Below are positions 448 through 64,000 of a stretch of 64,000 nt of DNA, one piece after another; the stretch's first letter is position 1; the number at the start of each line of letters is the position of its first letter. The notes below the pieces were generated by a model. That model had not been told where the DNA came from. It did not search any database and saw only the letters and a program-made list of their open reading frames with translations. The position numbers were made by a program, and so were the translations under genes. The stretch is from Eledone cirrhosa (taxonomy: Eukaryota), in the NCBI GenBank assembly GCA_964016885.1, contig OZ024743.1, positions 12,958,001-13,022,000 on the forward strand, given 5' to 3'.

Positions 448-2572
448 ATGCATACCCTATTGGATCTAAAAAAATCTAAAAAAATCCATGTCCACTCGGA
501 CAAAACTGGAAATCTGTATCACATGGATATTGAAAATTACAACGAGTTCATATATAAAGAACTCAGGAAGAATTATAGAAAAACAAACAATGCGTCACTT
601 ACCAACATAAACAACAAAACACACAACATAGTGAATAGACTTAATATTGAAGATAGAACTGAACCTTTGGCACTGAAAAGACCACATTTCAACCTGAAAG
701 ATCATAAATGCCCTTCCAAATCTGATATTGGAATCATTAGTAAAACTTTTTTAGATAGAGTCATCCCATAACTAAGAAAACATGTTAATTTACCACTCTG
801 GGAAAACACAGCCCAGGTAATTAACTGGTTTAATAACATTAGAAATAGATCCTCTGCTTCATTTCTACAATTTGATATAGATAATTATTATTCTTCTATA
901 TCACCTATACTCCTGAACAAAGTCTTGATATTTGCTAAAAATAGATCTAACTTAACTTTGGATGACATTAATATTATTACACATGCCAGACTAACACTAT
1001 TGGAATTTCAAAATGAATACTGGACAAGAAACACATATAGTAATCTATTCGATATTACTATGGGCTCAAGTGATTCTGCCCAAATTACGATCTTGTGGGC
1101 CTCTTTCTTCTTTTCAACATAAATGCTTCCTTTCCCCACCATAAAGGTGGTTTATACCGTGACGACTGTCTTCTTCTTTCCAATAACCTTAGCCTTTCAG
1201 AGATAGAAAAAAATAAAAAGCTTATTAGAACTTTCCTTAAAGACTATTATAGTCTAGATATTACATTTGAAAACACAAGTAAAGTAGTTAATTTCCTCGA
1301 TATAATATTAGACTTATCTACGGGTATCTACCAACCTTACCATAAACCTAACCAAAATTTACACTACATACACTCACAATCTAATCACCCTAAATCTATC
1401 CTTAAAGACCTTGCATATAATATATCACTTAGAATTTCTAACCTTTCGTCTAACCAGGATGTATTTGATAAAAATGCGACCTTTTATAACGAAGCTCTAG
1501 CGAGAAGTGGCCACAAAAATAAATTAGTATATATACCTTGTACCAATAACACTACAAACACACAACCTAATATTACCAACAAACACCAAATGAAACATAC
1601 ACACCTAAATGCCACTCACACTATACCCCAAAATACAAACATAAAACCAAATTTCTCTAAGTCTTCTAATATACAATATAGTAACTCTCAAAAAACCACT
1701 CATCCTACAATTCTAATAAATGGTAATAATAAAACTCCTAATAAACAAGCTAAAACACCTAAATCAATAAATCTAACTAAAAATGTGTGTGGTGAAGTCA
1801 TTAACAATAATTCTCTTAATAAACATCAGGATACATCCTATAAAAACAATAAACAACATCGAAACCGTAATAGACGAGTTACTTGGTATAATGCTCCATT
1901 TAATTTACAAATTAAGGATAATATACCTAAAAAATTCTTTAATATCCTAGAGAAGAACTTCCCGCCAAACCACAAATACCATCAAATTTTAAATAGATCA
2001 ACGGTTAAATTCTCCTACTCAACAACGAAAAACATAAAACAAAATATAAGTGCCTACAATGCATATAAATGTAAAAAAAACCATGAGTATACCACCAGTA
2101 CATCAAACTAACCATAATATCTCCTCGGATACAGGATTCAAGAAAAGTTGTAACTGTAGAAACAAGGCAAACTGACCATTAAAAGGAAATTGCCTTGTTA
2201 ATAACATAGTATATAAATGTAAAGTTAACACTAAAGACTCAATTTATTCATATATAGGAGCTACCTGTAACAAATTTAAGGTAAGATTTAATACCCACAA
2301 ACATAGCTTTAAAAATTGCCGCACTAGCTAATACAACATCTCTAGCTGAAATAATTAATAATTATAGAAAGAGGAATATAAATTATGACCTGACCTGGAG
2401 TGTGCTCAAAAGGGCCACCCCTTATCAAAATAATAGATATGAATGTAGATTATGTTCCCAAGAACTCTTTGAAATAATGAAATCTAAGGATATCCTATTA
2501 AATAAGCGACAGGAATTAATAATATCGTGTAATCACAAACTGAGAAAAACCTTTAAATATTATAAACCTAAT
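448..2572 (+). pseudogene. Penelope-like (Naiad) RT + GIY-YIG endonuclease, disrupted by stops and frameshifts
   Basis: SDKTGNLY, FDITMGSSDSAQ, GLYRDD, VNFLDIILDL, YHKPN, SNHP, TWYNAPF, CNCRNKAN*PLKGNCL, IVYKC...YIGAT, CRLC. Confidence 0.93.
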
Positions 2573-3988: not shown

Positions 3989-5289
3989 GATGGCTGCTGC
4001 AAACTCTGCCAAGAGTATTGCAATCGCTTGTCAGATTCAGATGTGTGACGCTTGGATATGGCTTTTCAAGCCTGCTAGAGACTTGCACTCTTTCACACAC
4101 TGACGACAACTATGGATCTCGCTGGCTTGAGGTCCTGCATCTGGTTGCCCGTGAACCCTCACAACACCGTGGAGATCATAGTTCACCGGTTCTTTTTGAA
4201 CATGGCTGCGATTGTGGCGCCTGAGACCAGATTTGCTCAAGCAAATTTTTCCACACTCAGGGCACTTCAATTAAATGGAGACACCGATCGTTTCGAGAGA
4301 TACACCAGGGCATTGCTTACGCACATCTCGTTTGATCTTCTCGTGCTCTATGCGTCTGTCCTCAAAATTATGGACCCCATCATTCACCATTCCACGCCAA
4401 GTTTCTCTTTTAAGAACTTCTATCTCCCAGTCAGCCATCATCAAACCAGTTTCTTTCAATGAGTCCTTTACACAATTCCCAAGTGTTTTCACATTCCATG
4501 AGACCTCGACAGCTCAGCTCTGACTTTCTCTGTTTTCAGACGAGCCACCTTTAGTTGTTTTAGAAGTGCAACCTTCTTCCCTCTTACTTTGGGCTTCACA
4601 ACAAATTGAAATTTGGCGCGCACCAGACGATGATAAGTTCAACATTCCGCGCCTCGCAATACACGAACCAATGTGATATCCCTGATATCACGTTTTCTCG
4701 TTAAAACAAAGTCAATAAGATGCCACTTCTTGGAACCTGGATGCATCCAAGTTGTCTTATATTTATCTTTCTGCTGAAAGAACGTGTTCCCAACAACAAG
4801 ATCCATCTAAGTGCGGCATCTGCAACAGAAGTAGGCCATTGTTATTGCACTTACCTACTCCATACTTGCCCATCACACTTCAAGCTTCCCAGTCATTACC
4901 AACACGTGCATTAAAATAACCAAGGATGACAATCTTATCTGCATAAGGTATACCATGGATGACCTCTCTCAAAGACATGTAGAAACTTAGTTTTTCTGGT
5001 ACAAACACTACACTTGTGACAATTATTGACACATAGTGCTGGGCCCATGGTACCATGTGATGACAAGTGCAGAGAGATCTCTAGATATAAAGCAATGCCT
5101 GTGCCGTGAAGTTTTTATAGCGAGCAAAGGCACTGCACAAAGACAGTCCCTCTCTCTCAACCAAGATGATATTTACCAAAAAGAAGAACAAGTCAACATC
5201 ATTGGATACCATCAGGGTTGCAGGTGTTATATCAGAGTTTTCCTTCTCCTAGAATTCTGCCTTGACAAAGGCTAAGGAGTCATCTCTCC

Positions 5290-5759: not shown

Positions 5760-6527
5760 TCAATATTTTTTAAGGCAACGCTTGTAATAACTCTAGTTAA
5801 ACATGATATATATTAATAATAAATTATCGTTGTAATGTAATTAGATTATATAATTGTTATTTTATAAATGATCTTATAAATATTATTGTAAGATGTATAA
5901 ACATATTTTCAGACTTTTAATAAAAACAACTACAAAAACAATCAATATTAAATAAATATATTTTACATAATAATTGTTATAGTTGAATTAATAAAAATTA
6001 AATATTACATACAAATAGTCTAACATAATAATAAAAAATAATCTAACATAATAATAATAAAATAATCTAACATAAAACGAACAATAATATGGACAAATAT
6101 ACAAGTAAATATGATATGCCAATATTATAAGCATGTTATAACTAACTGAAAAAAAAATAGTTAATATAGATTTAAAAAATCATATATAAATTAACAATAT
6201 AACTTACCAAAACGAGAAAAATATTTTAATGATAAACGACGAAATACAGGAGGAAGATTCGAAAGCGAAACGATAAATAAACGTGCAAACAAAATGGCGG
6301 ATGCTTTTGAGCAACAATTACTCTCGTTGGTTGATTAGCCAATAAGACGATGAAATTAGCCAATAAGACGATACATTACAAAACATGTTTGGCAGCGATC
6401 ACCACGGCCAGCGACACCCGTTGAATTTTTTTATTCACAAGCTAGCATATATGTTAGACACGCAGACATTCTGTTGTTAGTCACTGCGTGTCTAACACAC
6501 ACACATATATATATATATAGAGAGAGA

Positions 6528-6727
6528 GATAACAAAGGAATTGTGGTAAGGAACCAGATGGACCATAACGTACCAGAGTATGCAATACGTAGGATAGTAG
6601 AGTGGGAAATAGGAAAAAGTATGACCCCGACGGCAGAGCTCAAGCCTTTTCGACGGCTATTTCTGTTCTCCAGAAATAGCCATCGAAACGGCTTGAGCTC
6701 TGCCGTCGGGGTCATACTTTTTCCTAT
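6528..6727 (-). mobile_element. Family B fold-back element carrying the 3' half of a hammerhead (other copies 8740-8940, 42301-42433, 60217-60358)
   Basis: Palindrome 6609-6726 containing GAAA-CGGC-loop-GCCG-TC (stem III + GUC site); shared tail tggtaaggaaccag...gaccataacg. Confidence 0.8.
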
Positions 6728-6730
6728 ATA

Positions 6731-7290
6731 CATCTGTATACATATGTCGGTAGATATATTAATTCTTTATAATTATCTCCAAATTATTTGTTGAGCAAAA
6801 TTTGCCGAAATTACCACTCTGATTAATAGTAGTGGCTAGGCTCTGTCTTAATAGCACCCCCACTCCTAGCTGATTAACCTCAGTGTCACGTGATTGATTC
6901 TTTTGAATTTGCCACTTGACCAAGTAGGCAGTGAATTTTTCAATGTCCTGGAATCTAGCCCCGCTCGCTTTTTTCCATCCACTGAATTATTTTTATATAA
7001 GTTCCCAGTGTCCCCGCATTGCCTGGAAGCTTAGTTGAGAATAGACTCCCTGATGACGTAAGGCTTCTCTATGGGTACACTCCGTAACCATATTTATCCC
7101 CCTTACAGAAACTAATTAGTTGGAGTGAAATTTTTGTAAGTAAGTCAATTTTCATAACTTTCTTATTTACGTCTTTCATATAATTGTTCTGCATCCCCTT
7201 GCATAGAACCACAAAGTTATTAAGACAAAACATATATATCTGCTAGCATAGGTATGCATCTGTATACATATGTCGGTAGATATATTAATT

Positions 7291-8694: not shown

Positions 8695-8739
<45 letters not shown>

Positions 8740-8741
<2 letters not shown>

Positions 8742-8940
8742 CAAAGTGTGGTAAGGAACCAGGTGGACTATAACGCACCAGAGTACTCAATACTAGTGGG
8801 TAATAGGAAAATGTTGAAGACTCCGACGGCAGAGCTCAAGCCGTTTCGACGGCTATTTCTGGACTAAATTAGATATATTTCAGAAATAGCCGTTGAAACG
8901 GCTTGAGTTCTGCCGTCGGGGTCTTGAACATTTTCCTATT
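8740..8940 (-). mobile_element. Family B fold-back element
   Basis: Palindrome 8802-8940 with apex in the putative stem II; GAAACGGC...GCCGTC; between (TA)n tracts. Confidence 0.8.
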
Positions 8941-9115
8941 ATATATATATATATATATATATATATCCAGGGACTGTAACGCGGAGTTACTGTAGGTTCA
9001 CCCGGGTGAGCATTCGATGTTTAGGTTCACTTCTGTATCGAGGTGTAGATCTAGACAGAGTGTAGTATAATAAAATAAAACAAGGACGAGTGGTTACTCC
9101 TTACGTTTATTGGTT

Positions 9116-14993: not shown

Positions 14994-15346
<353 letters not shown>

Positions 15347-16146: not shown

Positions 16147-16193
<47 letters not shown>

Positions 16194-16197
<4 letters not shown>

Positions 16198-16907
16198 AAC
16201 AATGAAACGAAATTTCATTTCTCACTCTTAGTACGGCTGATACTTAAATGTAAGTATGTATACGTACATACATATATGTATACAGTCATACAGTAGTATG
16301 TATATATATACATACATACATGCACATATATATATATATATGTACGTATGGCTTTACCGAACATTTATGATAATGTTCGGTTTGCTTGTAAACAAACAGC
16401 CCGAATTACGCCGTACAGTGTTCGGCAACCATCGTCGCCCTTTTTGTTCAACACTGACACAGGAACGATGTACATACATACATTTAAGTATCAGCCGTAC
16501 TAAGAGTGAGAAATGAAATTTCGTTTCATTCTTTTCCATTTATCATTTTCGGTACGCCCGGCCGACTAACTCACTCGATATGCAAATTAGGCTGCTCAGC
16601 TGTTAATATGCATAAGGAAAGTATGTACTTTCAAACGTTCTATCATCTGACAGGAAGGTATACAATGCTGATGATAGTTAATAAGCTTGAAACTAGTACA
16701 TTGTTCCTCTGTCAGTGTTGAACAAAAAGGGCGACGATGGTTGCCGAACACTGTACGGCGTAATTCGGGCTGTTTGTTTACAAACAAACCGAACATTATC
16801 ATAAATGTTCGGTAAAGCCATACGTACATATATATATATGCATGTATGTATATATATACATACTACTGTATTTCTGTATACATATATGTATGTACGTATA
16901 CATACTT

Positions 16908-16910
<3 letters not shown>
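16194..16910. mobile_element. Family E: about 430-nt unit (16474-16910) plus an inverted permuted copy (16194-16473)
   Basis: The left arm on the minus strand runs from the cleavage triplet across the unit end-to-start junction; flanked by (TA)n/(CA)n. Confidence 0.88.
16662..16704 (+). ncRNA. Minimal type I hammerhead ribozyme
   Basis: acaatg-CTGATGA-tagtt aata agctt-GAAA-CTAG-TA-cattgt. Confidence 0.92.
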
Positions 16911-16972
<62 letters not shown>

Positions 16973-21680: not shown

Positions 21681-21751
<71 letters not shown>

Positions 21752-21791
21752 GATATTAACAAATGGAAACTATATTTATAAAACCATATTT

Positions 21792-21854
21792 ATTTCATTA
21801 TACATATTTCAAGGACACCAAGTTAAATTATAGTGTGCTTTCATCAGATAAAAT
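21792..21854 (-). ncRNA. Type I hammerhead in the Naiad 3' pLTR
   Basis: Minus strand: attttat-CTGATGA-aagcac...gtgtcctt-GAAA-tatgta-TA-atgaaat. Confidence 0.85.
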
Positions 21855-23277
21855 ATAATATAGATCAGTTTTATAAATAAATATTGACATACCCTTAAAG
21901 AATGCAACAATTACTGTTGGAAGCTCCCGGATAGTGGAGTTGTAGCTTAATTATATTATTATTGGATATTTTTAAAATAACCCGTTGGGTTACGGAAAAA
22001 GAGAAAGATAGAGAAGGAAAGAGAGAGAACGAACAGAACAACAGAGAGAAAAATAAAGAGAGAGAGGAGACAGAGAAAATGAGAGAGAACGAAAACTCTA
22101 AAGTCATATCTTGTTGAGTTAACTTAACAATTGAGATGAAATGAGTAAATAATCATGAATGGATTATACATATATAAAATGAGAAATTTAACCATTGTTT
22201 AAATATGATTAGATGTTTAGTTAATCAGTTAAATATTGAGATCAATATATAAAAAAATTGGGATCTATATATTAAGAAATCCATATATTATTAAAGATCT
22301 AAATATTATATAACACGTATACACACGCAAAAATACATAAATATAAATATATATACACACTTATAAAATACATATATATATCTAACTACGTATATAATAT
22401 ATACATACAAAACATAAAGGATTCTTTGATTTAATTTAAGATATAGGAATCTTATAAACTGTTATAATTGTTAAGATATTAAACAAATTTTTTTAATATA
22501 AGTTTTATAACATTACCTGTTATGTATTTATGGCTGTTATTATATGTCTATCTGTCACGAATCTTGGGATAATCACTATACATAAGTGTAATCGAATTGT
22601 ATGGATATACACGCACATGTACATACACAATTCCCACATATACATACATACATGTACCCTCACAAATAGGTAGATACGCATCACGTATATATATACATAC
22701 AGATAGACATATACGCATAAAACATATGTACATGTATGTCAATACACACATATACATATATACACACATATAGAGAGAAGTATATATAAATACAGTACAT
22801 AGTATAATTGAGTACCTAAAATACAAAAGAATTATATTACGATTTGGAAATATAATTATAAGCAATATAACTTTAAAAACAATATAATTTTAAAATATTA
22901 TAGAATATTTTAAGTCATAATTTCAAAATAATAGTATGTTTAATAGATTTAGTATAGAAATTGTCTACTTATATTTAACTTAATATTATATCCATAAGAG
23001 AAACAAACTGAAACTTTGAAAGGATAAACTTTCGAAAATAGGAGAAGCTATCAGACAATAAAAATAAAAGTAAAAATATAAGAAATATTTTCCCCTTTCA
23101 AGAGCTCTCAGTATATTTCTCTAGAATAGTTTATTAAATTGTTTTCATTATATTTATTTATATTTAGGAAGAAAAGTTATTTTTATTTGAGTGTATAATC
23201 AGTAAAAAAAGGTGAAGGAATCTAATGATTTATCGACAGGTTCAATATATTAATAAAATTAATAAATTAATTATATA

Positions 23278-25581
23278 TTACATTTTCAATTTATATTTAT
23301 ATTTAAACGTTGAGTTTAATCTATGTCTACAGAAACTGAATAAATTATTTCTTAACTTCAGGGAATTTTTGGTCTTTAATATAAAGAATATTTCCTCTAT
23401 ACAAAGATCACAATTTTCTGAAGAGGAGTTAAAAGGAATAGCTTTTGAAATAATATTCCAAATCAACGAATATTCAACGTTCTTTAGTTTGAGATCCCAT
23501 AATAGGCTAGCTAGAGAAGTTGAAGATTTTTTGTTTGGATCTGTAAAAGAATTTTTATGATTATTGAAGCGGGATTTAAACTCTGTGGAAGTGGATCCTA
23601 CATAATTAAATGAATTTAAATTAGTTTTTACATTACAATTATATATTATATTTTTAGCTAAGCAATTGTTATTTAACGGACAGTTAGATTTATTTCTACA
23701 GTTACATTTATCAAATTGGATATTGCTTGGGTTACTAGTGGTATTTTGGTTAGGTTTTAAATTTCTATTATTAATTCTATTAATATTTTGCGCTAAATTT
23801 TTGGTGGAAGAATAAGTTAATTTTATAGTATGTCTATTAAAAATTGAGTAATATTTATGTGTTCTAGGGAAGCATTTGTCAAGAGCTTTAAAAAATAGTT
23901 TAGCAATAGGGGTTTTAATATTTAATGAGAAAGGAGGAGCGAACCATAATATGTTCCTAGTTCTATTTCTTTTACCGCTTTAGGAATTAATGTAAGGTTT
24001 TCTATTATAGTTGTTAAAATTGTTACCATAGTTAAAATTGTTACGATTATGGTTGGTTGTTATATTATTATTATTATCGATGTATTTAATTTTATTTCTA
24101 TACCCAGCTCTACCTAACGCTTCGTTGTAATAATGTGCTTTTTCATCAAATATAATCTTATTAGCTGAAATTCTCGAAATTCGTTCCTGTACAGAGTTCA
24201 CTATAGTATTTTTAACGGATCTGGGGTGATTAGAGTTAAAATTGACGTAGTTTAAGTTCTCATTTAGTTTGTGAAATGGATAATGAAGACATGTGTTAAG
24301 ATTTAGTGTTACATCTAGAAAGTTAACTATTTTATGGTTATTCTCTATTTCTACTTTTAGATTAAGGTAATTAAAAAATTGTATAATTTGTTTTCTTTTT
24401 CTATTTAGTTCACAGTTATTATTTTCTATAAGTAAAAGCATGTCGTCACGATATAAACCTCCGGTTATCTCAGGTATTTTTCTATGTAGAGAATTATTTA
24501 TAAAGAGGCCCACAAGATCCGTTACCTGAGTGGAATCGGATGATCCCATAGTTATATCGAAATTATTATTTCTATCTACCCTAGTCCAGAGTTGGTTATT
24601 AAATTCTATTAATGTTTTCCGTGCCGATAATATAATGTGCATTTCATTACTAGTTAGGTTTGTATGTTTAAATGCATAAGTTAGTGCTTTATTCAGTAGA
24701 TTAGGAGTGATAGATGAGTAATAGTTAGCAATATCCAACTGAATAAACTTATTATTATAGTTATATTTAATTTCTTTAAACCAATCGATAACTTCACTAG
24801 TTCCTTTCCATAATTTTAAATAAGATAAATTCTTAATTTGTGGTATTATTCTGTCTAGAATATTTTTGCTAAGTCTGCCAAGGTCCAATTTAGATGGTGC
24901 AATTAATCTGACTGGTAAATCAGTTTCGAAGTTCCTTTTATGATCCTTCATATTGATCTTAGGTTTCCTTGGCATGAACGGTTGTGTCCTATTTTCAATG
25001 GCTAGTTCATGCATTATATAAGAGGCATCTGCATTCAATTTTTCAAGGTCGTCTTTATTTGCTACTTTGTATTTCTTCCTTAGTTCCTTTAATATAAGAT
25101 CGTTATAAATGTCCTTTTGTATTCCGTAAAGATCATTGGTTTTGTCAGATTTGACTAGAATTTTCTCCGTTCTCTCCAAGTTTTCAATATTATTTTTAAT
25201 ATTTCTTAAGTAATCCTGGCCTTTGAAGTTGTTTTTGAATTTGATGCTTTGGATAATAAATATGATATCATTTTCAAAATCCATTAGTAGTTTGTTGGGT
25301 GGTGGTGGTGGTGGTGGGGTGGGGTGGTGGTGGGGTGGGGTGGGGTGGGGTGGAGAGAGATTTTTTTTAGATTTGAAGATTTCATCCAGATTGGAGACAT
25401 TTTCATTTAGATTAGATTTATCGAAGTGGAAAGCGTGCCACCTTATTCTTCTTATAAAAGAGTCTGATTTTTCTATTAATTGTTTAATAAAATCTTTATT
25501 CCTAGGTAAAGGTATGTCCTTTAGAGAAGAAGAGATCTTAAAGAATTCCATTTTCCAGTTATAATATAAAGCGCTCGACAA
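23278..25581 (-). CDS. Penelope-like (Naiad) RT-GIY-YIG protein, about 760 codons, one in-frame TAA at 23980-23982
   Basis: SLKDIPLP, KSDKT, FIQLDIANYY, MGSSDS, GLYRDD, NFLDVTL, SNHP; the same frame continues ILWFAPPFS, CNCRNKSNCPLNNNCL, IIYNC...YVGST, RFNNH, CDLCIEE, CRHR. Confidence 0.93.
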
Positions 25582-25844
25582 TACAGGATCAGAATATATG
25601 TAAAAGTTCTATTTAAATTGTTGGGATACAACAAGCAAATATTTTTATAACTGATATAAAGCACTCAACAAATGAAAGCACACCCTAATTTAACTTGGTG
25701 TCCTTGAATATAATTAAATAAATATGGTTTTATAAATATAGTTTCCATTTGTTAATATCGTATTTTTACTCCAAATATTTGTTGAGTGCTTTATATTAGT
25801 TATAAAAATATTTGCTTAATGTATCCCAACAATTTAAATAGAAC

Positions 25845-25950
<106 letters not shown>

Positions 25951-31651: not shown

Positions 31652-32213
31652 ATTGTCGCGGGTGGGACCAATCCGGTTGACCACCCAGTCCATTGTCGTG
31701 ATCAAACCGCCACCCTCCTTCAAAAACGAAGGAGAGGCGGTTTTCCTTTGTGTGATAGCTATGGCGAAAGAGGTTGTATGGTGGACAAGGTTGAAAGGGC
31801 TGAGGTCAGACACCTTTCTCTCCGGCCAACAACTGATTCTTTTTTTCAAATACCACTTTGGAAGAAGAATCAGTATGGAGAGAGAGGTGCTGTACCCCAG
31901 CAAGTTTTATGAAAGGTGGGTGAAAGTGGCGAGAATGGCCCGAGTGAATGGGCCTTCTCTCTATATCAGCCTGTAGGTTGAGGAAAAGGAGGAGGAGGGG
32001 AAAGGAGTACAAACTCTTCGTAACTCCTGGAGATGAGGGCTGCACATTTTTTCGGGGGTATGTATTACCCATATGAACTGTCTCCCCCTATTGGGGAAAA
32101 TCGACTAATTTTTTAAATTGCATTTGTGATAATATTTTACACGTTTTTATTGTATGTAAACTTTTATTGTATTTGTCCCCTTCTTTTGTGCCACTGTGGC
32201 TAATAAAGAAACA

Positions 32214-32298
<85 letters not shown>

Positions 32299-32300
32299 CT
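31652..32300 (+). mobile_element. 5'-truncated Tx1/L1-like LINE with (TATC)n tail
   Basis: LSRVGPIRLTTQSIV...WVKVARMARVNGPSLYISL; aataaagaaac followed by (atct)n. Confidence 0.88.
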
Positions 32301-32603
32301 CTATCAGACGTGTGTAACTTCGCAGAGAAGTTTCCGTTAATTTATGTAAGAAAAAAACGAGTTTTTAGTTAAATTTTATATTATTGTGTAACTTGACCCC
32401 CCGTCTGGACCTTCAAGTGGTGGGTCAACTCATTTTTGCCCCTACAGGGGCGAAATATCCATTTGAAAAATTTTTTCTCCATCGAATCTTGGAAAAAATA
32501 TTGTAAAAGTTTGATTACGTTATGAACGCTGCGTCCAACGATAATGGTGGTGGAGAGGCGGTAGGACTACAAAGCTCGCAGTCAACAACGTCTTCTTCAC
32601 TAG

Positions 32604-34299
32604 TTGGAGTTGTTGCAGGGCATCCCGTTGGAACCGGGATTGCGGAAAGCGGTGTCAGCCTACGCCGATGACGTAACAGTAATGGTGTCGACGGCCTCGG
32701 AAATCGGGGCGATCGGCACCTTACTGGAGGAGTACGAAAGGTTTACAGGGGCTAAGCTGAACCGGGACAAGTCGATCGGTCTGCAACTCGGCACATGGAG
32801 GGGCAGATCGATGCCCTCAGATGGCGTCGTCGGGCGCTGGACGGAGGGCCCGGTGAAGTTGCTCGGGGTCTGGTTCGGACCAGGGTGAGAAGAACTGGGG
32901 TGAGGTAACGAACAGGGTGTTTGCACTGACCCAGAAGTGGGCCGAGTGCAAACTGTCCCTAAAAGGTCGGGCGGAGGTGGCGAACACTTATATAGCGTCC
33001 GTCATCTACTACCGCCTGACCGTTGTGCCTTGCCCAAGGGAAACGCTCGCCAAAATGGAGCGCGCACTCTTCCAATTCCTTTGGAAGAAGCGGGCTCCTA
33101 TGGTGAGGAAATCCATCTGCTGTCAACACCCTTCGAAAGAAGGGCTGGGGATGCCGTGGCTAATGATACGTAAACACGCATTAAGGCTACGGCACCTTCA
33201 GGTATTCCTCTCCGGTCAACCGGTGTGGGCCCCGTTTGTGAGGCGAGCCTTTCCCAGACTCGTCTCACTCACCGAGCTGCAATCCTGGGTCAAGCAAAGA
33301 CCGAGAAAACTGGGCGCCTAGCACACCGAGTGTGCCCAGGCGCTCACGGCTCTCTGGCAGGCGGACCCGGCTGTCAGTGGAGAATCCACCTCGTCATTCT
33401 ATAGGGGGCTGGTGGTTAGCAGGTGCGACGACGCCCTCGGAGAAGCCCTAGGCATGGAGGAAGACGAACTGGCCAACCTGTTCGGTAGGACATTCAGCCC
33501 GGGACCCATGGATAACTTCCAGAGGTCCCTGGCCTGGCAATGCTACAGAAGGGCTCTGCCCGTTCGAGAAAGGCTCTACAGATACGGGCGCCCGGGTAGG
33601 GACCCCTCGAAAAAGATCTGTCCCAGATGCGTGTGCGACGAGGAAACCGTTGCACACGCATTGGTACACTGCTCGGGCATTGCCGATCTGTGGGGCTATG
33701 TCGAACAACTGCTGTCAAGGGTGGGACCGATCCGGTTGACCACTGAGTCTATTGTAACGATCAAGCCGCCTCCCCTCTTCAAAAACGAAGAAGAGGCGGT
33801 GTTTCTGTGCGTAATAGCCATGGCGAAAGAGGTTGTATGGTGGACGCGTCTGAAAGGACTGAGGTCAGACACCTTTCTCTCTGGCCAACAACTGGTCCTT
33901 TTCTTCCGATATCATTTCGGAAGAAGGATCAGGATGGAGAGAGAGGTGTTGCACCCAGCCGTTTTTATGAAAGATGGGTGAAAGTGGCGAGAATGGCCCG
34001 TGTGAATGGGCCTTCACTCTACATCAGACTATAGGTGAGGAAGATGAAAGACCAAGGGAGCATCCCTTCTCTGTGCTCCCGAGGAAAAGGGTTGCACACT
34101 TTTTTTCGGGGATGTGTGCGACCCCCCAAGGCGCCTCCTCTCTATTGAGGACTTTGTTATAAATTTTATTTTTTGTTATATTTTATTTTATTTTTATATT
34201 TTGTTATTGCCTCCTCCTTATTGAGGACGCCTTTTTGTGTAAACTCCCCCCATTGTACTTGTCCCACTTTTGATGCCCTGGTGGCAAATAAAAGAAACA

Positions 34300-34378
<79 letters not shown>

Positions 34379-34397
34379 TTATCTATCTATCTATCTA
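32604..34397 (+). pseudogene. Tx1/L1-like LINE ORF2 3' part (RT, C-terminal CCHC domain), 3' UTR and (TATC)n tail
   Basis: SAYADDV, GAKLNRDKS, KLLGVWF, LSLKGRAEVAN, GLGMP, CPRC...ETVAHALVHC; frameshifts and a stop. Confidence 0.92.
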
Positions 34398-34800
34398 CAA
34401 TATATAACTCAATATATAAGCTATGCGTTTATGCGTGTTACCCCTGCAAACGCTATGATTGAATGTTTCCTTTAGATGATTCAGTATATATAATATTGTG
34501 CCACATAGATTCATGTGCGTCTGTCTACTATATATACTTTACACACACATGCACACATGTATGTATGTATATCTATTTTCTCAACCTGGTAGTTCTTTCG
34601 TTACTTTGGTATATTGTGTGTTAGATTTTGCAACCACAATGTTCGATTTGTCAAACTATTTAAACGTATTTAAACGTTATTACTCTAAGGACCTACCTTA
34701 TCGAGTGGTTTGCTAACTCATTATTTCATATAGTAGGCCGAATTTGCTTGCAAGCCGCCAGAGATTCGATTTTACTAAGTATCCAATTATATATATATAT

Positions 34801-35522
34801 AGTACGGATGTTACTTAAATATAAGTATGTACACGTACATACATATATGTATACAGACGTACATGCACACATATATATATGTACGTATGGATTCACCGAA
34901 CATTTATTATAATGCTCGGTGTGTTTGTAAACAAACATCCCGTATTAAGCCGTAGTGTCCAGCAACCATCGTTGCTCGTTTGTTCAACACTGACAAAGGA
35001 ACGCTGTACTAGTTTCAAGCTTATTAGCTATCGTCAGCAACGTATACCTTCCTGCCAGATTGTTGAACGTATATATATACTAAGAGTGGGAAATGTATAT
35101 ACTAAGAGTGGGAAATATTTATACTAAGAGTGGGAAATGAAATTTCGTTTCATTTTTTCCGTTTATCGTTTTCGTTGAACCCGGCCGATTAACCCACTCG
35201 ATATGCAAATTGGGCTACTCAGCCGTTAATATGCATAAGGTAAGTATATACGTTCAACAATGTGGCAGGAAGGTATACGTTGCTGACGATAGCTAATAAG
35301 CTTGAAACTAGTACAGCGTTCCTTTGTCAGTGTTGAACAAACGAGCAACGATGGTTGCTGGACACTACGGCTTAATACGGGATGTTTGTTTACAAACACA
35401 CCGAGCATTATAATAAATGTTCGGTGAATCCATACGTACATATATATATGTGTGCATGTATGTATATATATATACATACTACTGTACGTCTGTATACATA
35501 TATGTATGTACGTGTACATACT

Positions 35523-35523
<1 letters not shown>
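34801..35523. mobile_element. Family E palindromic copy with two hammerheads (35001-35043 minus, 35277-35319 plus); further fragments at 36392-36610 and 38303-38400
   Basis: acgttg-CTGACGA-tagct aata agctt-GAAA-CTAG-TA-cagcgt on both arms. Confidence 0.9.
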
Positions 35524-35615
<92 letters not shown>

Positions 35616-35618
35616 TTT

Positions 35619-35815
35619 AATATAGAAATGGCTTCTACAGGACAAGAACTGTTTCATTAGAAGGAAACCACGAGGAAAGCCCTGACGCTCCCGATGATTT
35701 CCTTCGAATGAAACAGTTCTAGTCCTGTAGAAGCCATTTCTATATTGAAAAATTACACACTGCTATGTATTGACTACCTTACTTAATGTGGTTACTCTCG
35801 ATTGAACCCGGGATA
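35619..35815. mobile_element. Family A fold-back copy (core CCGAUGA at 35691)
   Basis: Homologous to 15128-15308; between (TG)n and (CA)n. Confidence 0.82.
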
Positions 35816-36330
35816 CACACACACACATGCATATGTGTGTGTGTGTGTGTTTATATGTGTGCGCGTGTGAGTGTGTGTTTCTCATATAAATATATAAATA
35901 TACATGCACATATCAGTATCTCTTTTTCCCGGCAACGAATGAAAGTGAAAGACCTTTGTGCAGACATCGCTCTTGTTTGCACCCATACAAGTTACTGTTC
36001 TAAAAGCGACAGCTAGGCTCTCTATCGCGCGTACAACTCCGGTAGTCTGTTAATTCTACCGATTCAATCCTTCACTTTTATCAATATCCACTGTTAATTA
36101 AAGCTGAAGGCGCGCTATTTGATTCTGTTTGACGTTTAGAACAAAACAAATAACTAAGAAATACATTATCTTTTGGTAAAGAGTGAAGAAAAACAAACAA
36201 CGTCCAACACGTTGAGTTGTTTAATATAATATATTGAGTCGGTGGTCGCCATAGATATGCACGCGTATTCATGTGCCTGCGTATCTAAGCATAAAGTCAT
36301 GCATACGCCCCCCCCCTCACATATATATAA

Positions 36331-36396
<66 letters not shown>

Positions 36397-36630
36397 GGAA
36401 AAGATGAAACGAAATTTCATTTCTCACTCTTAGTACGGCTGTTACTTAAATATAAGTATGTACACGTACATACATATATGTATACAGACGTACATTATAA
36501 TAAATGTTCGGTGAATCCATACGTACATATATATATGTGTGCATGTATGTATATATATATACATACTACTGTACGTCTATATACATATATGTATGTACGT
36601 GTACATACTTATATATATATATATATATAT

Positions 36631-36970
36631 AAAGAAAAAAAGATGAAATCAAAAATGCAACTGGAGTCTTATTTAAAAAAAAAATATATATATTTATTTA
36701 TTTGGTTCCTTTACCGGTTTCGCAGTTCTTCTGCTTTTCAAAAGTAGAGTTGAGATGGAGGGTCTGTGGTTTTTCTCACATCAGACCCTCCACCTCAACT
36801 CTACTTCTGAAAAGCAGAAGAACTGCGAAACCGGTAAAGGAACCAAATAAATGTATATATTTTTTTAAAAACAAGACTCCAGTTGCATTTTCGATTTCAA
36901 CTTTTTTTCTTTATACTTTCACTCGTGTAGGACACCTCAGTTATTTTTCATTTTGTAAAAAAACCCTCAC

Positions 36971-36975
<5 letters not shown>
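36631..36975. mobile_element. Family C palindrome with two hammerhead variants (36709-36744 minus UUGAAAA; 36804-36839 plus CUGAAAA)
   Basis: Arms about 36631-36764 and 36783-36914; gcag aagaa ctgc GAAA ccgg TA. Confidence 0.8.
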
Positions 36976-37050
<75 letters not shown>

Positions 37051-37052
<2 letters not shown>

Positions 37053-37933
37053 AAAATTAAGATAAATCAAAATGAATTTAATCTAAATCAAAATTATGGG
37101 TGTCATGCCAGAAAGACATGCGCCATATCACCCGCAAAATAAGCTCTAAGATTCTAACGAATAGGTCCGAGCATTTTATAATAACTAGAAATTGATTAAC
37201 ATATAAATAAGCATGAATAATCACAGGAGATAATTTTTACAAGTGTGTAAGCACACATAGCTAGGTAGGTAACTAAATAAAGATAACCAGAACTTCAAAA
37301 ATAGATACCTTATAATATGATTAATCTTCCCTGTATATATTCCATTGAAGAAATATATTTTACTAATTAATCGAATGGTAAACCACGGATGCCGATACTT
37401 GGATTTTCAACAAGGAAGAAGTTTCAGCGATCTATGTTTACGCTTCAAGTTCAAATCAGCGACTGGCCAGCAACACGTGCTGTATCTACTAGAAATACAT
37501 CCATCGTACCAGCTTTATCCCAGTGGCGTGAATAGGGTTATTGACAACTAGAAACAGCAGTCAAGTCCTTTCAAATGTTAGCTCTACAATTAAGGAGCCG
37601 TATTTATATATCTATATCCAAAATTAAGATAAATCAAAATGAATTTAATCTAAATCAAAATTATGGGTGTCATGCCAGAAAGATATGCGCCAATACCACC
37701 CGCAAAATAAGCTCTAAGATTCTAACGAATAGGTCCGAGCATTTTATAATAACTAGAAATTGATTAACATATAAATAAGCATGAATAATCACATGAGATA
37801 ATTTTTACAAGTGTGTAAACTTTATTCTGGTTAACTTTATTTAGTTACCTACCTAGCTATGTGTGCTTACACACTTGTAAAAATTATCTCCTGTGATTAT
37901 TCATGTTTATTTATATATTAATCAATTTCTAGT

Positions 37934-37938
<5 letters not shown>
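37051..37938 (-). mobile_element. Retrozyme-like unit F: 567-nt period, about 200-bp redundancy, plus a fold-back end
   Basis: ccaaaattaagataaatcaaaatg... at 37051 and 37618; 37819-37938 is inverted; (TA)n on both sides. Confidence 0.88.
37328..37416 (-). ncRNA. U3-A8 hammerhead, G12 decayed to A
   Basis: Minus strand: tccttg-TTGAAAA-t ccaa...ttag t-AAAA-tatatttc ttcaat ggaatata-TA-caggga. Confidence 0.6.
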
Positions 37939-37995
<57 letters not shown>

Positions 37996-41703: not shown

Positions 41704-42201
41704 ATATACATGCACACATAAAACGCATCGACGTTGTTGTCTAAATTCCACTGATGAAGCTTTGGTTCTTTTTTCAGGAAACCAGCCCATTATAAGAAGA
41801 ATTCAAATATCAAAAATAATTGTTTCTACTTTTTGGCACAAGGCCAGCAATTATCCCAGTGCATTACTGGTACTTTATTTTATCGACCCCGTAAGGATGA
41901 AAGGCAAAGTTAACCTCGGCAGGATTTGAACTCAGTCCGTAAAGGGACGTAACTGTGCTACAAAGCATGGTGTCCAGCCCTCTACCGATATTGCCAATCC
42001 ACAGCCCTCAAATATAAAAAATAATATAGAGATACATTATATATATCTAAATATATTCTAAAATACACATTGCCTCGTTAGCAAAACATTATAATGAATG
42101 ATTTCCTAGGGAACACTGCATGGAGATGAGCTGGTCTCGGTTCCCTCCTGTATGTATACAGATATAAATTCTTTACACACATACACAATCGCGTACATAC
42201 A

Positions 42202-42300
<99 letters not shown>

Positions 42301-42429
42301 GTAGTGTGGGTAATAGGAAAAGAGTCAGGACTTCCACGGCTGAGCTCCGGCCGTTTTGACAGCTAGATCTGAACTCAGATCTAGCTGTCGAAACGGCCGG
42401 AATTCAGCCGTGGAGGTCCTGACTCTTTT

Positions 42430-42489
<60 letters not shown>

Positions 42490-59935: not shown

Positions 59936-60367
59936 GTGTGTGTGTGTGTGTGTATATGTATGTGTGTGTGTATGTATATGTATGTGTGTGTGTGTGTATG
60001 TATATGTGTGCTCACAGACACATAATATTTTATTTAAGTTGAAGTTGAATTCCATTTCCTCACTGAAGAGTACGGTGATGTCAAACTCAAGTCGTGCGAA
60101 AGGAGTTTAAATAAAAAAAAATATTTATTCGATAATATGAAAGAGTACACTCTTCCTCATTTCTTAGAACATTATATATATCTATATATATGTATGTATA
60201 TATATAAATATATATATAGGAAAATGTTTGACCCCGACGGCAGAGCTCAAGCCATTTCGACGGTCAAACATTTTTCTATTACCCACTCTACTACCCTAAG
60301 TATTGAGTACTCTGGTGCGTTATGGTCCTTCTGGTTCCTTACCACACCTCTTTCGTTATATATATAA

Positions 60368-60404
<37 letters not shown>

Positions 60405-60576: not shown

Positions 60577-60903
<327 letters not shown>

Positions 60904-63014: not shown

Positions 63015-63068
63015 GTCAGTCCCTCTCTCTCTTTATCTATTTAACTATCTATCTATTTCTCTGTCGGC

Positions 63069-63964
63069 GATCAGTGGAGACTCCACTTCGACATTCTATA
63101 GATGGCTGGTCCGCAGCAAGTGCGACGACACGCTCGGAGAAACTCTAGGCGTAGAGGAGGACGAACTGGCCAGTCTGTTCGGTAGGACCTTCCGCCCGGG
63201 ACCAATGGACAATTTCCAAAAATCCCTGGCTTGGAAGTGCTACCGAGGAGCTCTACCAGTTCGAGACAAGCTCTACAGACATGGGCGCCCGGGCAGGGAC
63301 CATTCGAAAAAGATCTGTCCGAGATGCGTGCGCGACGAGGAAACCGTCGCGCACGCATTTGTACACTGCCCGGGCGTTACCGACCTGTGGGGCTATGTAG
63401 AACGACTATTGTCGCGGGTGGGACCAATCCAGTTGACCACCGAGTCCATTGTCATGATCAAACCGTCACCCTCCTTCAAAAACGAGCGAGAGGCGGTTTT
63501 CCTATGTGTTATGGATATGGTGAAAGAGGTTATATGGTGGACGAGGTTAAAAGGGCTGAGGTCAGATACCTTTCTATCCGGCGAGCAACTGATTCGTTTT
63601 TTCAAATATCATTTTCGAAGAAGAATCAGGATGGAGAGAGAGGTGCTGTACCACAGCAAATTTTATAAAAAGTGGGTGAATGTGGCAAAGATGGCCCGAG
63701 TGGTTGGGCCTTCTCTCTATATAAGCCTGTAGGTTGAGGAAAAAGAGGAAGAGAGGAAGGGAGTACTCACTCTGGTGATCCTGGAGATAAGGGTTGTACA
63801 TTTTTTCGGGGTGTGTACAACTCCTGTGTAACGCCTCCCCCCTATTGGGGATATTAATTGTTATTTGTTATTTTATTAATAGTTTTATTTTCATATACCT
63901 GTATGTAAACTCCCCATTTGTATTTGTCCCCTTCTTTTGTGCCATTTTGGCTAATAAAGAAATT
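63069..63964 (+). mobile_element. 5'-truncated Tx1/L1-like LINE with a 19-bp TSD
   Basis: Homologous to 33370-34290; tatctatttctctgtcggc at 63050-63068 and 63965-63983. Confidence 0.92.
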
Positions 63965-64000
63965 TATCTATTTCTCTGTCGGCCTATGCCGACGACATAA

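What the first reader, a model, noticed from the sequence alone, without database searches (positions are those of the whole stretch)
16194..16473. An inserted copy starts exactly at the ribozyme cleavage site and runs across the unit end-to-start junction
Seen: the minus-strand arm begins gta-catcgttcct, matching GUA|cattgttcct at 16696-16708. It passes the unit end (catacttaca) and continues into the unit start (tttaagtatcagccg). Inference: the template 5' end was generated by self-cleavage and the unit is circularly permuted.
Basis: partly seen in the sequence, partly recalled or inferred. Interest (0 to 1): 0.72.

Follow-up and report, generated by a model that had tools for sequence, protein, structure and literature searches.

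The report
Back-to-back Penelope-type ribozyme repeat insertion
This is one of many thousands of insertions of a 429-base repeat that carries a self-cutting RNA motif and was likely copied by a Penelope-type jumping gene from both sides of a DNA break; its start at the ribozyme cut site is probably chance, because the family's starts show no peak there.

Summary
The observation mostly holds. The minus arm (16195-16473) runs from unit position 215-218 through the unit end into positions 1-55; 218 is the first base after the predicted hammerhead cut. 'Exactly' cannot be shown: three bases (16471-16473) are shared with the facing plus arm.

In 187 arms chosen without regard to their start, 3.0 starts fall at 215-221 against 4.6 expected, and 122 of 133 arms reaching position 228 run on through the site. 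A small bump at the GTAC of the site (9 of 53) is matched at a non-ribozyme GTAC (12 of 46).

What is fixed is the 3' end: two sites about 60 bases apart, followed by (TA)n. In 75 of 81 head-to-head pairs one arm ends at each site (p about 1e-16). A Penelope-type RT/endonuclease element in the same window has the same layout. Arms share rare alleles, and young arms hold up to seven near-identical units.

Verdict: a non-autonomous Penelope-mobilised hammerhead repeat (non-LTR retrozyme), likely copied from an uncleaved or circular RNA. The scan noted this layout before on other DNA of this genome.

The parts
16148..16194 (.). (TA)n tract, left flank, likely target
   Evidence: sequence; 138 of 150 arm ends of mixed pairs have (TA)3 within 24 nt
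16195..16473 (-). inverted arm: unit 215/218 -> 429 -> 1-55 (270 nt); ends at the tail site (T end)
16195..16249 (-). tail: unit positions 1-55, the stretch between the two fixed 3' ends
   Evidence: TA loose ends behind the matching plus-strand position 16543 in public contigs
16471..16473 (.). 3-nt microhomology at the head-to-head junction; 16470 is the first base that belongs only to the minus arm (unit 218, first base after the predicted cut)
16471..16908 (+). direct arm: unit 419 -> 429 -> 1-428 (439 nt); ends at the unit-end site (U end); runs through an intact cleavage site
16662..16704 (+). type I hammerhead motif: helix I 16662-16667 with 16699-16704, CUGAUGA 16668-16674, helix II 16676-16687, GAAA 16689-16692, 1-2 bp helix III with palindromic loop, predicted cut after 16698
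   Evidence: core intact in 221 of 270 gap-free copies; no Rfam hit
16909..16966 (.). (CA)n(TA)n tract, right flank
   Evidence: sequence
21748..25851 (-). separate family in the same window: Penelope-type element with RT-like ORF (23980-25608, YRDD motif), GIY-YIG-like ORF (23278-23979), 3' repeat with a hammerhead-like motif ending in (TA)n, and an inverted copy (25672-25851, +) carrying an 88-nt tail; same one-tail layout
   Evidence: no Pfam hit; clade not determined
34800..35527 (.). second head-to-head insertion of the family: arms start at unit 154 and 17
36397..36614 (.). third head-to-head insertion: arms start at unit 387-390 and 311-314, one T end and one U end

Best explanation
The locus is a head-to-head pair of 5'-truncated copies of a 429-base hammerhead-bearing repeat, likely inserted in one event by a Penelope-type RT/endonuclease borrowed in trans. 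Inferred steps: the enzyme cuts both strands of a (TA)n tract; each 3' end primes reverse transcription on the same, or a sister, head-to-tail RNA (uncleaved multimer or, more likely, a ligated circle); one end starts at the unit-end site and the other about 60 bases further on (the tail site); both stop at random and are joined through a few shared bases. The left arm's stop at unit 215-218 is then an ordinary random stop, helped by GTA microhomology, that happens to include the cut site. Shown: layout, two fixed ends, one-of-each rule, flat distribution of starts, shared alleles. Inferred: enzyme, two-sided priming, nature of the template, ribozyme activity.
For: Flat 5' starts: 3.0 observed vs 4.6 expected at 215-221 in 187 arms; 122 of 133 arms run through. 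GTAC bump at the site (9 of 53) matched at control GTAC 270-272 (12 of 46). Genome-wide, 227 filtered copies are native from 218 against 427 from 222, of about 29,700 anchors, which leaves no room for a spike. Fixed 3' ends followed by TA. Mixed ends in 75 of 81 pairs, 40.5 expected. Microhomology of 1-10 nt at 86 of 148 junctions. Arms share rare alleles 88 vs 15 expected, successive units 58 vs 11; the two window arms are 97.7% alike over 173 nt, closer than to any other arm compared. Young arrays of 2+7 and 6+1 units differ by 0-2 bases per 210. Same layout in the ORF-bearing element at 21748-25851. Papers: inverted 5'-truncated copy and one-sided tail (PMC8557442, PMC3846280, passages); two RT start sites bounding the tail, both strands cut and extended, hammerhead cleavage not needed in vitro (PMC11167929, parts 1-2 of 4).
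Against: No autonomous element sharing this unit was found in 282-287 loci, so the enzyme is inferred. The tail (55-62 nt) is longer than the 30-40 nt in print. Allele sharing is modest (33 of 113 pairs share at least one rare allele) and could reflect subfamilies or gene conversion. No strand bias of A>G that would mark an RNA step (238 vs 247 T>C, p 0.27). This arm has exactly the length that run-off on an RNA cut at 218 would give, and a second locus (L125) has a tail arm starting at 215-220. No target-site duplication could be shown (1 direct match of 12 nt or more in 75 pairs).
Confidence: 0.72

Rival explanations
1. One reading: the template was a linear RNA whose 5' end was made by hammerhead cleavage; the RT that started at the tail site ran off that end at 218 and was joined to the other arm through GTA.
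For: The junction interval 215-218 has its inner bound exactly at the cut. Arm length 270 equals the run-off length. Five of 53 breakpoints in the enriched set have intervals that include 218. Both arms share rare alleles, as from one RNA.
Against: No family-wide peak; the equivalent count at the control motif is 3 of 46. The partner arm passes an intact site, so the RNA would have to be cut at one site and not at the next, and unit 419-55 would be copied twice. The motif has a 1-2 bp helix III and U-U at the base of helix II in 254 of 270 copies; such motifs cleave poorly as monomers (PMC4209133, parts 1-2 of 4).
Confidence: 0.15
2. The inverted arm was made by fold-back or self-priming (template switch to the nascent cDNA, or priming on an antisense RNA, as proposed in PMC3846280) rather than by a second priming event on the target.
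For: Arms share rare alleles. Some junctions are perfect hairpins at palindromes (L211, L260, L307).
Against: The left arm carries the tail (1-55), which the right arm's end lacks, so it cannot be a copy of that cDNA end. Both outer ends sit at fixed sites next to TA, one of each in 75 of 81 pairs, and the two inner starts are unrelated in most pairs.
Confidence: 0.08
3. The structure is a DNA-level rearrangement (inverted duplication, repair) of an ordinary satellite, or an assembly artefact.
For: Some loci show later inverted duplications (L032). Microsatellite-rich, quasi-palindromic sequence.
Against: 148 dispersed head-to-head junctions with different inner points but two fixed outer ends; the two window arms differ at several bases, which a read fold-back artefact would not give; the tail end is also seen in public contigs of another data set.
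Confidence: 0.05

Closest known systems
Metazoan non-LTR retrozymes (Cervera and de la Pena 2020, PMC7229834, passages; Li, Clavereau and Pollet 2026, bioRxiv 10.64898/2026.07.22.740005, parts 1-3 of 5)
   Same: Non-coding unit of a few hundred bases, low GC, type I hammerhead in each unit, dispersed monomers to multimers, co-occurrence with Penelope-like elements; mobilisation by Penelope enzymes and circular templates are proposed there.
   Different: Unit 429 nt, slightly above the 170-400 nt given for RNAs in the first paper; the passages I read do not describe head-to-head arms with one-of-each fixed ends or a flat 5' truncation profile; expression, cleavage and circles are untested here.
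Insertions of endonuclease-bearing Penelope-like elements: pseudo-LTR, inverted 5'-truncated copy, one-sided tail (PMC8557442 and PMC3846280, passages; PMC11167929, parts 1-2 of 4)
   Same: Inverted truncated copy at the 5' side, tail at one end only, AT-rich or (TA)n targets, microhomology junctions, two fixed initiation sites, hammerhead in the repeat.
   Different: No ORF in this family; tail 55-62 nt rather than 30-40; arms can hold several whole units; no cognate autonomous element found.
Minimal and small-helix-III type I hammerheads of Penelope pLTRs (PMC4209133, parts 1-2 of 4)
   Same: Conserved core, 6-bp helix I, 4-bp helix II, very short helix III with palindromic loop, predicted to work as a dimer.
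   Different: Base of helix II is U-U (254 of 270) or C-A (10) rather than the G-C described as highly conserved; no activity data.
L1 twin priming (recalled, not from a call)
   Same: Inverted 5' segment joined by microhomology, two priming events at one break.
   Different: Here the second arm starts at a fixed site, not at a chance internal annealing site, and the two arms overlap in template sequence rather than fitting end to end.

Membership tests
Type I hammerhead ribozyme | Core CUGANGA / GAAA / NUH in order with three helices | tested here: met
   16662-16704; core intact in 221 of 270 gap-free copies; helix I and II pairs kept in most copies, with wobble variants. No Rfam hit.
Type I hammerhead ribozyme | Canonical pair at the base of helix II (10.1-11.1) | tested here: not met
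   U-U in 254, C-A in 10 of 270; an atypical variant
Type I hammerhead ribozyme | Self-cleavage after NUH | not testable with these tools
   needs in-vitro transcription of monomer and dimer
Non-LTR retrozyme | Non-coding tandem unit of a few hundred bases with a type I hammerhead in each unit | tested here: met
   429-nt spacing; arrays of up to 7 units; no coding ORF over the unit
Non-LTR retrozyme | Dispersed high copy number | tested here: met
   837 exact matches of a 25-nt anchor, 29,746 of a 21-nt anchor that includes related subfamilies
Non-LTR retrozyme | Expressed as linear and circular RNA | not testable with these tools
   no RNA run available for the stretch
Penelope-like element insertion (non-autonomous) | Fixed 3' ends at two sites bounding a tail, tail at one end only | tested here: met
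   75 of 81 pairs mixed, p 1.4e-16
Penelope-like element insertion (non-autonomous) | Variable 5' truncation with adjacent inverted copy; AT-rich or (TA)n target | tested here: met
   115 of 187 arms are in head-to-head pairs; 138 of 150 ends next to TA
Penelope-like element insertion (non-autonomous) | Sequence shared with the pLTR of an autonomous RT + GIY-YIG element | tested here: inconclusive
   RT or endonuclease fragments lie near some copies but no recurrent pLTR junction was found; the window's own ORF element has a different repeat
Autonomous Penelope-like element | RT and GIY-YIG ORF between the repeats | tested here: not met
   no ORF within 16195-16908
Retroelement whose 5' end is set by ribozyme cleavage (R2-like, recalled) | Full-length copies pile up at the cleavage nucleotide | tested here: not met

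The most novel reading that the evidence does not exclude
These insertions are the DNA footprint of rolling-circle, two-ended target-primed reverse transcription: a Penelope dimer holds both ends of a break in (TA)n, its two halves start at two different fixed sites on one ribozyme-processed circular RNA, and each copies round the circle until they are joined. The ribozyme would then serve to make the circle, not the 5' end, and the one-of-each rule would explain the long-noted one-sided Penelope tail.
Probability: 0.45. Interest if true: 0.65.

Novelty: new member of a known kind. Interest (0 to 1): 0.36.

Why it matters
How Penelope-like elements form their inverted ends and tails, what their hammerheads do, and what mobilises animal retrozymes are open questions in the papers read. 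This family answers one of them negatively (the cut site does not set the 5' end of inserted copies, in line with the in-vitro result in PMC11167929) and gives a sharp, testable rule (one arm from each start site, 75 of 81). The specific coincidence that was flagged is ordinary.

Tried and rejected
Rfam: no hammerhead family at gathering threshold or at E up to 10; the miRNA hits lie on the TA/TG microsatellite part and were rejected. My first reading of the junction as a 6-nt microhomology (note) was wrong; the best split is 3 nt. My label 'Naiad-like' for the window's ORF element (note) was wrong: its endonuclease lies behind the RT; clade not determined. Search for an autonomous partner: none found; the endonuclease fragment facing the unit in L032 is antisense and has an unrelated 3' region. 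Pfam and solved-structure searches of the window's RT-like and endonuclease-like ORFs found nothing; the Atlas gave a GIY-YIG lead, on 23% of that cluster's members. RNA-editing bias: none. Target-site duplications: not detectable in TA tracts. No RNA holder listed. Public contigs X1-X3, of unknown kind, hold the family, but no listed piece spans the window's junction; position 16699 is not among the 18 loose ends shown of about 477, which is no evidence. A paper search for Penelope-like + truncation + 'ribozyme cleavage site' + insertion returned one unrelated paper (listing only). The look-up of earlier findings by sequence and by words found nothing.

Full report
Setting. The window lies in a 3.0-Gb animal assembly rich in microsatellites. 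The flagged stretch belongs to a repeat whose natural tandem spacing is 429 bases (L007/L009). I number the unit from L009:1501; the first base after the predicted hammerhead cut is then 218. A 25-nt anchor has 837 exact matches; a 21-nt anchor that also catches related subfamilies has 29,746.

Anatomy of the locus. From left to right: (TA)n; a minus-strand arm 16195-16473 covering unit 215/218 to 429 and then 1-55; a plus-strand arm 16471-16908 covering 419 to 429 and 1-428; (CA)n(TA)n. The arms face head to head and share three bases, 16471-16473, so the minus arm starts somewhere in 215-218 and the plus arm in 419-422. The plus arm holds a whole type I hammerhead motif at 16662-16704. Among 270 gap-free copies the core is intact in 221, helices I and II are mostly kept, helix III is 1-2 pairs with a palindromic loop, and the base of helix II is U-U in 254. 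Rfam does not score it. Activity is untested.

(a) Unselected sample: loci picked only for an anchor downstream of the site (90 of the first 100 of 639 matches, fetched; the first 30 of 458) gave 187 distinct arms. Starts are spread over the unit at 0.47 per 100 arms per base; 215-221 holds 3.0 starts against 4.6 expected, 213-222 6.5 against 6.6; 122 of 133 arms that reach 228 also cover 205; 111 arms pass the site once and 14 twice (first version). One bin, 341-360, in the microsatellite part, is high (20 vs 8.4), where alignment is least reliable. (b) Enriched sample: a pattern demanding non-native bases upstream caught 66 of the 837 anchors; 55 were analysed, 11 were dropped by eye as native copies with small indels. 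Of 53 breaks in 198-234 (about seven of them internal deletions or duplications), 1 starts unambiguously at 218, 5 have intervals that include it, and 9 reach back to 214-215 over the GTAC motif. The same design at a GTAC without ribozyme (277 matches, first 100 listed, 64 analysed after dropping indel copies by eye from rows 31-100) gives 12 of 46 at 270-272 (one duplicate pair among them) and 3 intervals that include the equivalent base. The bump is therefore a microhomology effect. The window's own arm is not in that set because it carries an extra A in the anchor (15 matches). (c) Wider family: 530 filtered matches; the 29 scripted gave 19 true breaks spread over 210-225 with one at 218, and my count by eye of the 100 listed rows gave about 4-9 per position from 213 to 224 except none at 220, with 5 at 218. 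Genome-wide, 227 filtered copies are native from 218 and 427 from 222. About 29 of the 100 listed rows are indel false positives by eye, so positions 213-218 hold no more breaks per base than 219-222. A run-off class, if it exists, is below roughly 1-2% of copies (inference).

What is fixed instead. 3' ends cluster at two places, the unit end (U, 415-6) and 45-64 (T), and are followed by TA (138 of 150 ends). From 287 loci and two window pieces, pooled from all searches, 148 head-to-head junctions were resolved (one duplicate dropped). Of the 81 with both ends at canonical sites, 75 have one U and one T, 4 two T, 2 two U, against 40.5 mixed expected (p 1.4e-16); 62 more have at least one end elsewhere, and 4 are cut by the locus edge. 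Junctions show 1-10 nt microhomology in 86, blunt joins in 22, short inserts in 40. An ORF-bearing element of another family in the same window (21748-25851, minus; RT-like ORF with YRDD, GIY-YIG-like ORF, hammerhead-like motif in its 3' repeat) obeys the same rule: its main copy ends at one site before (TA)n and its inverted copy runs 88 bases further, into the leader of the ORF.

Template. The two arms of an insertion are more alike than arms of different insertions (median 94.9 vs 93.2%, 60 of 68 pairs) and share rare alleles 88 times against 15 expected; successive units of one arm 58 against 11. The window's arms share two rare alleles and the rare extra A. Young arrays hold 2+7 and 6+1 units that differ by 0-2 bases per 210, in L318 only by private changes, and keep the U/T rule. 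A linear monomer cut at 218 could give at most 211 or about 273 bases, so most arms came from an uncleaved multimer or a ligated circle. DNA alone cannot separate these; I lean to a circle because long arms are near-identical inside while most loci are under two units long, but this lean was strengthened by earlier notes of the scan and by the proposal in PMC4209133, and is not shown. Against an RNA step I found no A>G strand bias, which is neutral at best.

Mechanism. Most likely (0.72): a Penelope-type enzyme in trans cuts both strands of (TA)n, primes cDNA from both ends, one at each fixed site, and the two random stops are joined by microhomology. PMC11167929 (parts 1-2 of 4 read) reports for an anole element that both strands are cut and extended, that RT starts at two internal sites bounding the tail, that the protein is predicted to be a dimer, and that hammerhead mutants insert normally. 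PMC8557442 and PMC3846280 (passages) describe the inverted truncated copy and the one-sided 30-40 bp tail. PMC7229834 (passages) and bioRxiv 10.64898/2026.07.22.740005 (parts 1-3 of 5) describe retrozymes and propose Penelope mobilisation. The cleaved-template reading for this one copy stays possible (0.15): the arm has the run-off length, and L125 has a similar arm, but it needs one site cut and the next not. No autonomous partner of this unit was found.

Novelty. A new member of a known kind. I did not find the flat truncation profile or a count of the one-of-each rule in the passages read; supplements were not read, and those of PMC11167929 and PMC4209133 may bear on this. Earlier notes of this scan describe the same two-armed layout for 310-, 422- and 467-base units in this genome; one of them favours copying of cut RNA units, which this family does not show. 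Interest 0.36.

Noticed in passing
window 21748-25851 (-): Near full-length Penelope-type element: RT-like ORF and GIY-YIG-like ORF separated by one stop codon in this copy, about 1.4-kb AT-rich 3' region, hammerhead-like motif at about 21847, inverted copy with an 88-nt tail; relatives with 40-59% identity lie in many fetched loci.
   Followed up: partly
window 1074-2111 (+): Fragment of another Penelope-type ORF with an asparagine-rich linker.
   Followed up: no
window 15133-15309, 35618-35827, 60578-60835; also 6505-6759, 8695-8966, 42175-42466, 60188-60401; 36628-37021; 37034-37959: Several further repeat families arranged as back-to-back pairs beside TA tracts; the first carries CUGAYGA/GAAA motifs on both strands.
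   Followed up: no
L319:1533-1556 and 5241-5270: About 28 bases of unique left flank recur in inverted orientation just beyond the right end of a young 6+1-unit insertion; unexplained, possibly copying of target DNA during insertion. Two of 75 other pairs had inverted flank matches of 12 nt or more.
   Followed up: partly
L179, L182, L188 (unit 199-206): Recurrent 8-nt deletion between the two AGCT strands of helix II, which removes the helix; seen in several independent loci.
   Followed up: no
L071, L205, L227, L252, L204 and others, 3' flanks: The family often sits in the TA tracts that end other repeat families, giving nests of TA-targeting elements.
   Followed up: partly
window 31652-34391 and 63065-63980: Two related fragments (79-83% alike) of a LINE-type ORF C-terminus; label from recall, not tested.
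   Followed up: no
G000:C1:5.54 Mb, 11.82 Mb, 14.40 Mb (L319, L320, L322): Related subfamilies with 466-500-nt units share the hammerhead region and the fixed ends but differ downstream of it.
   Followed up: partly
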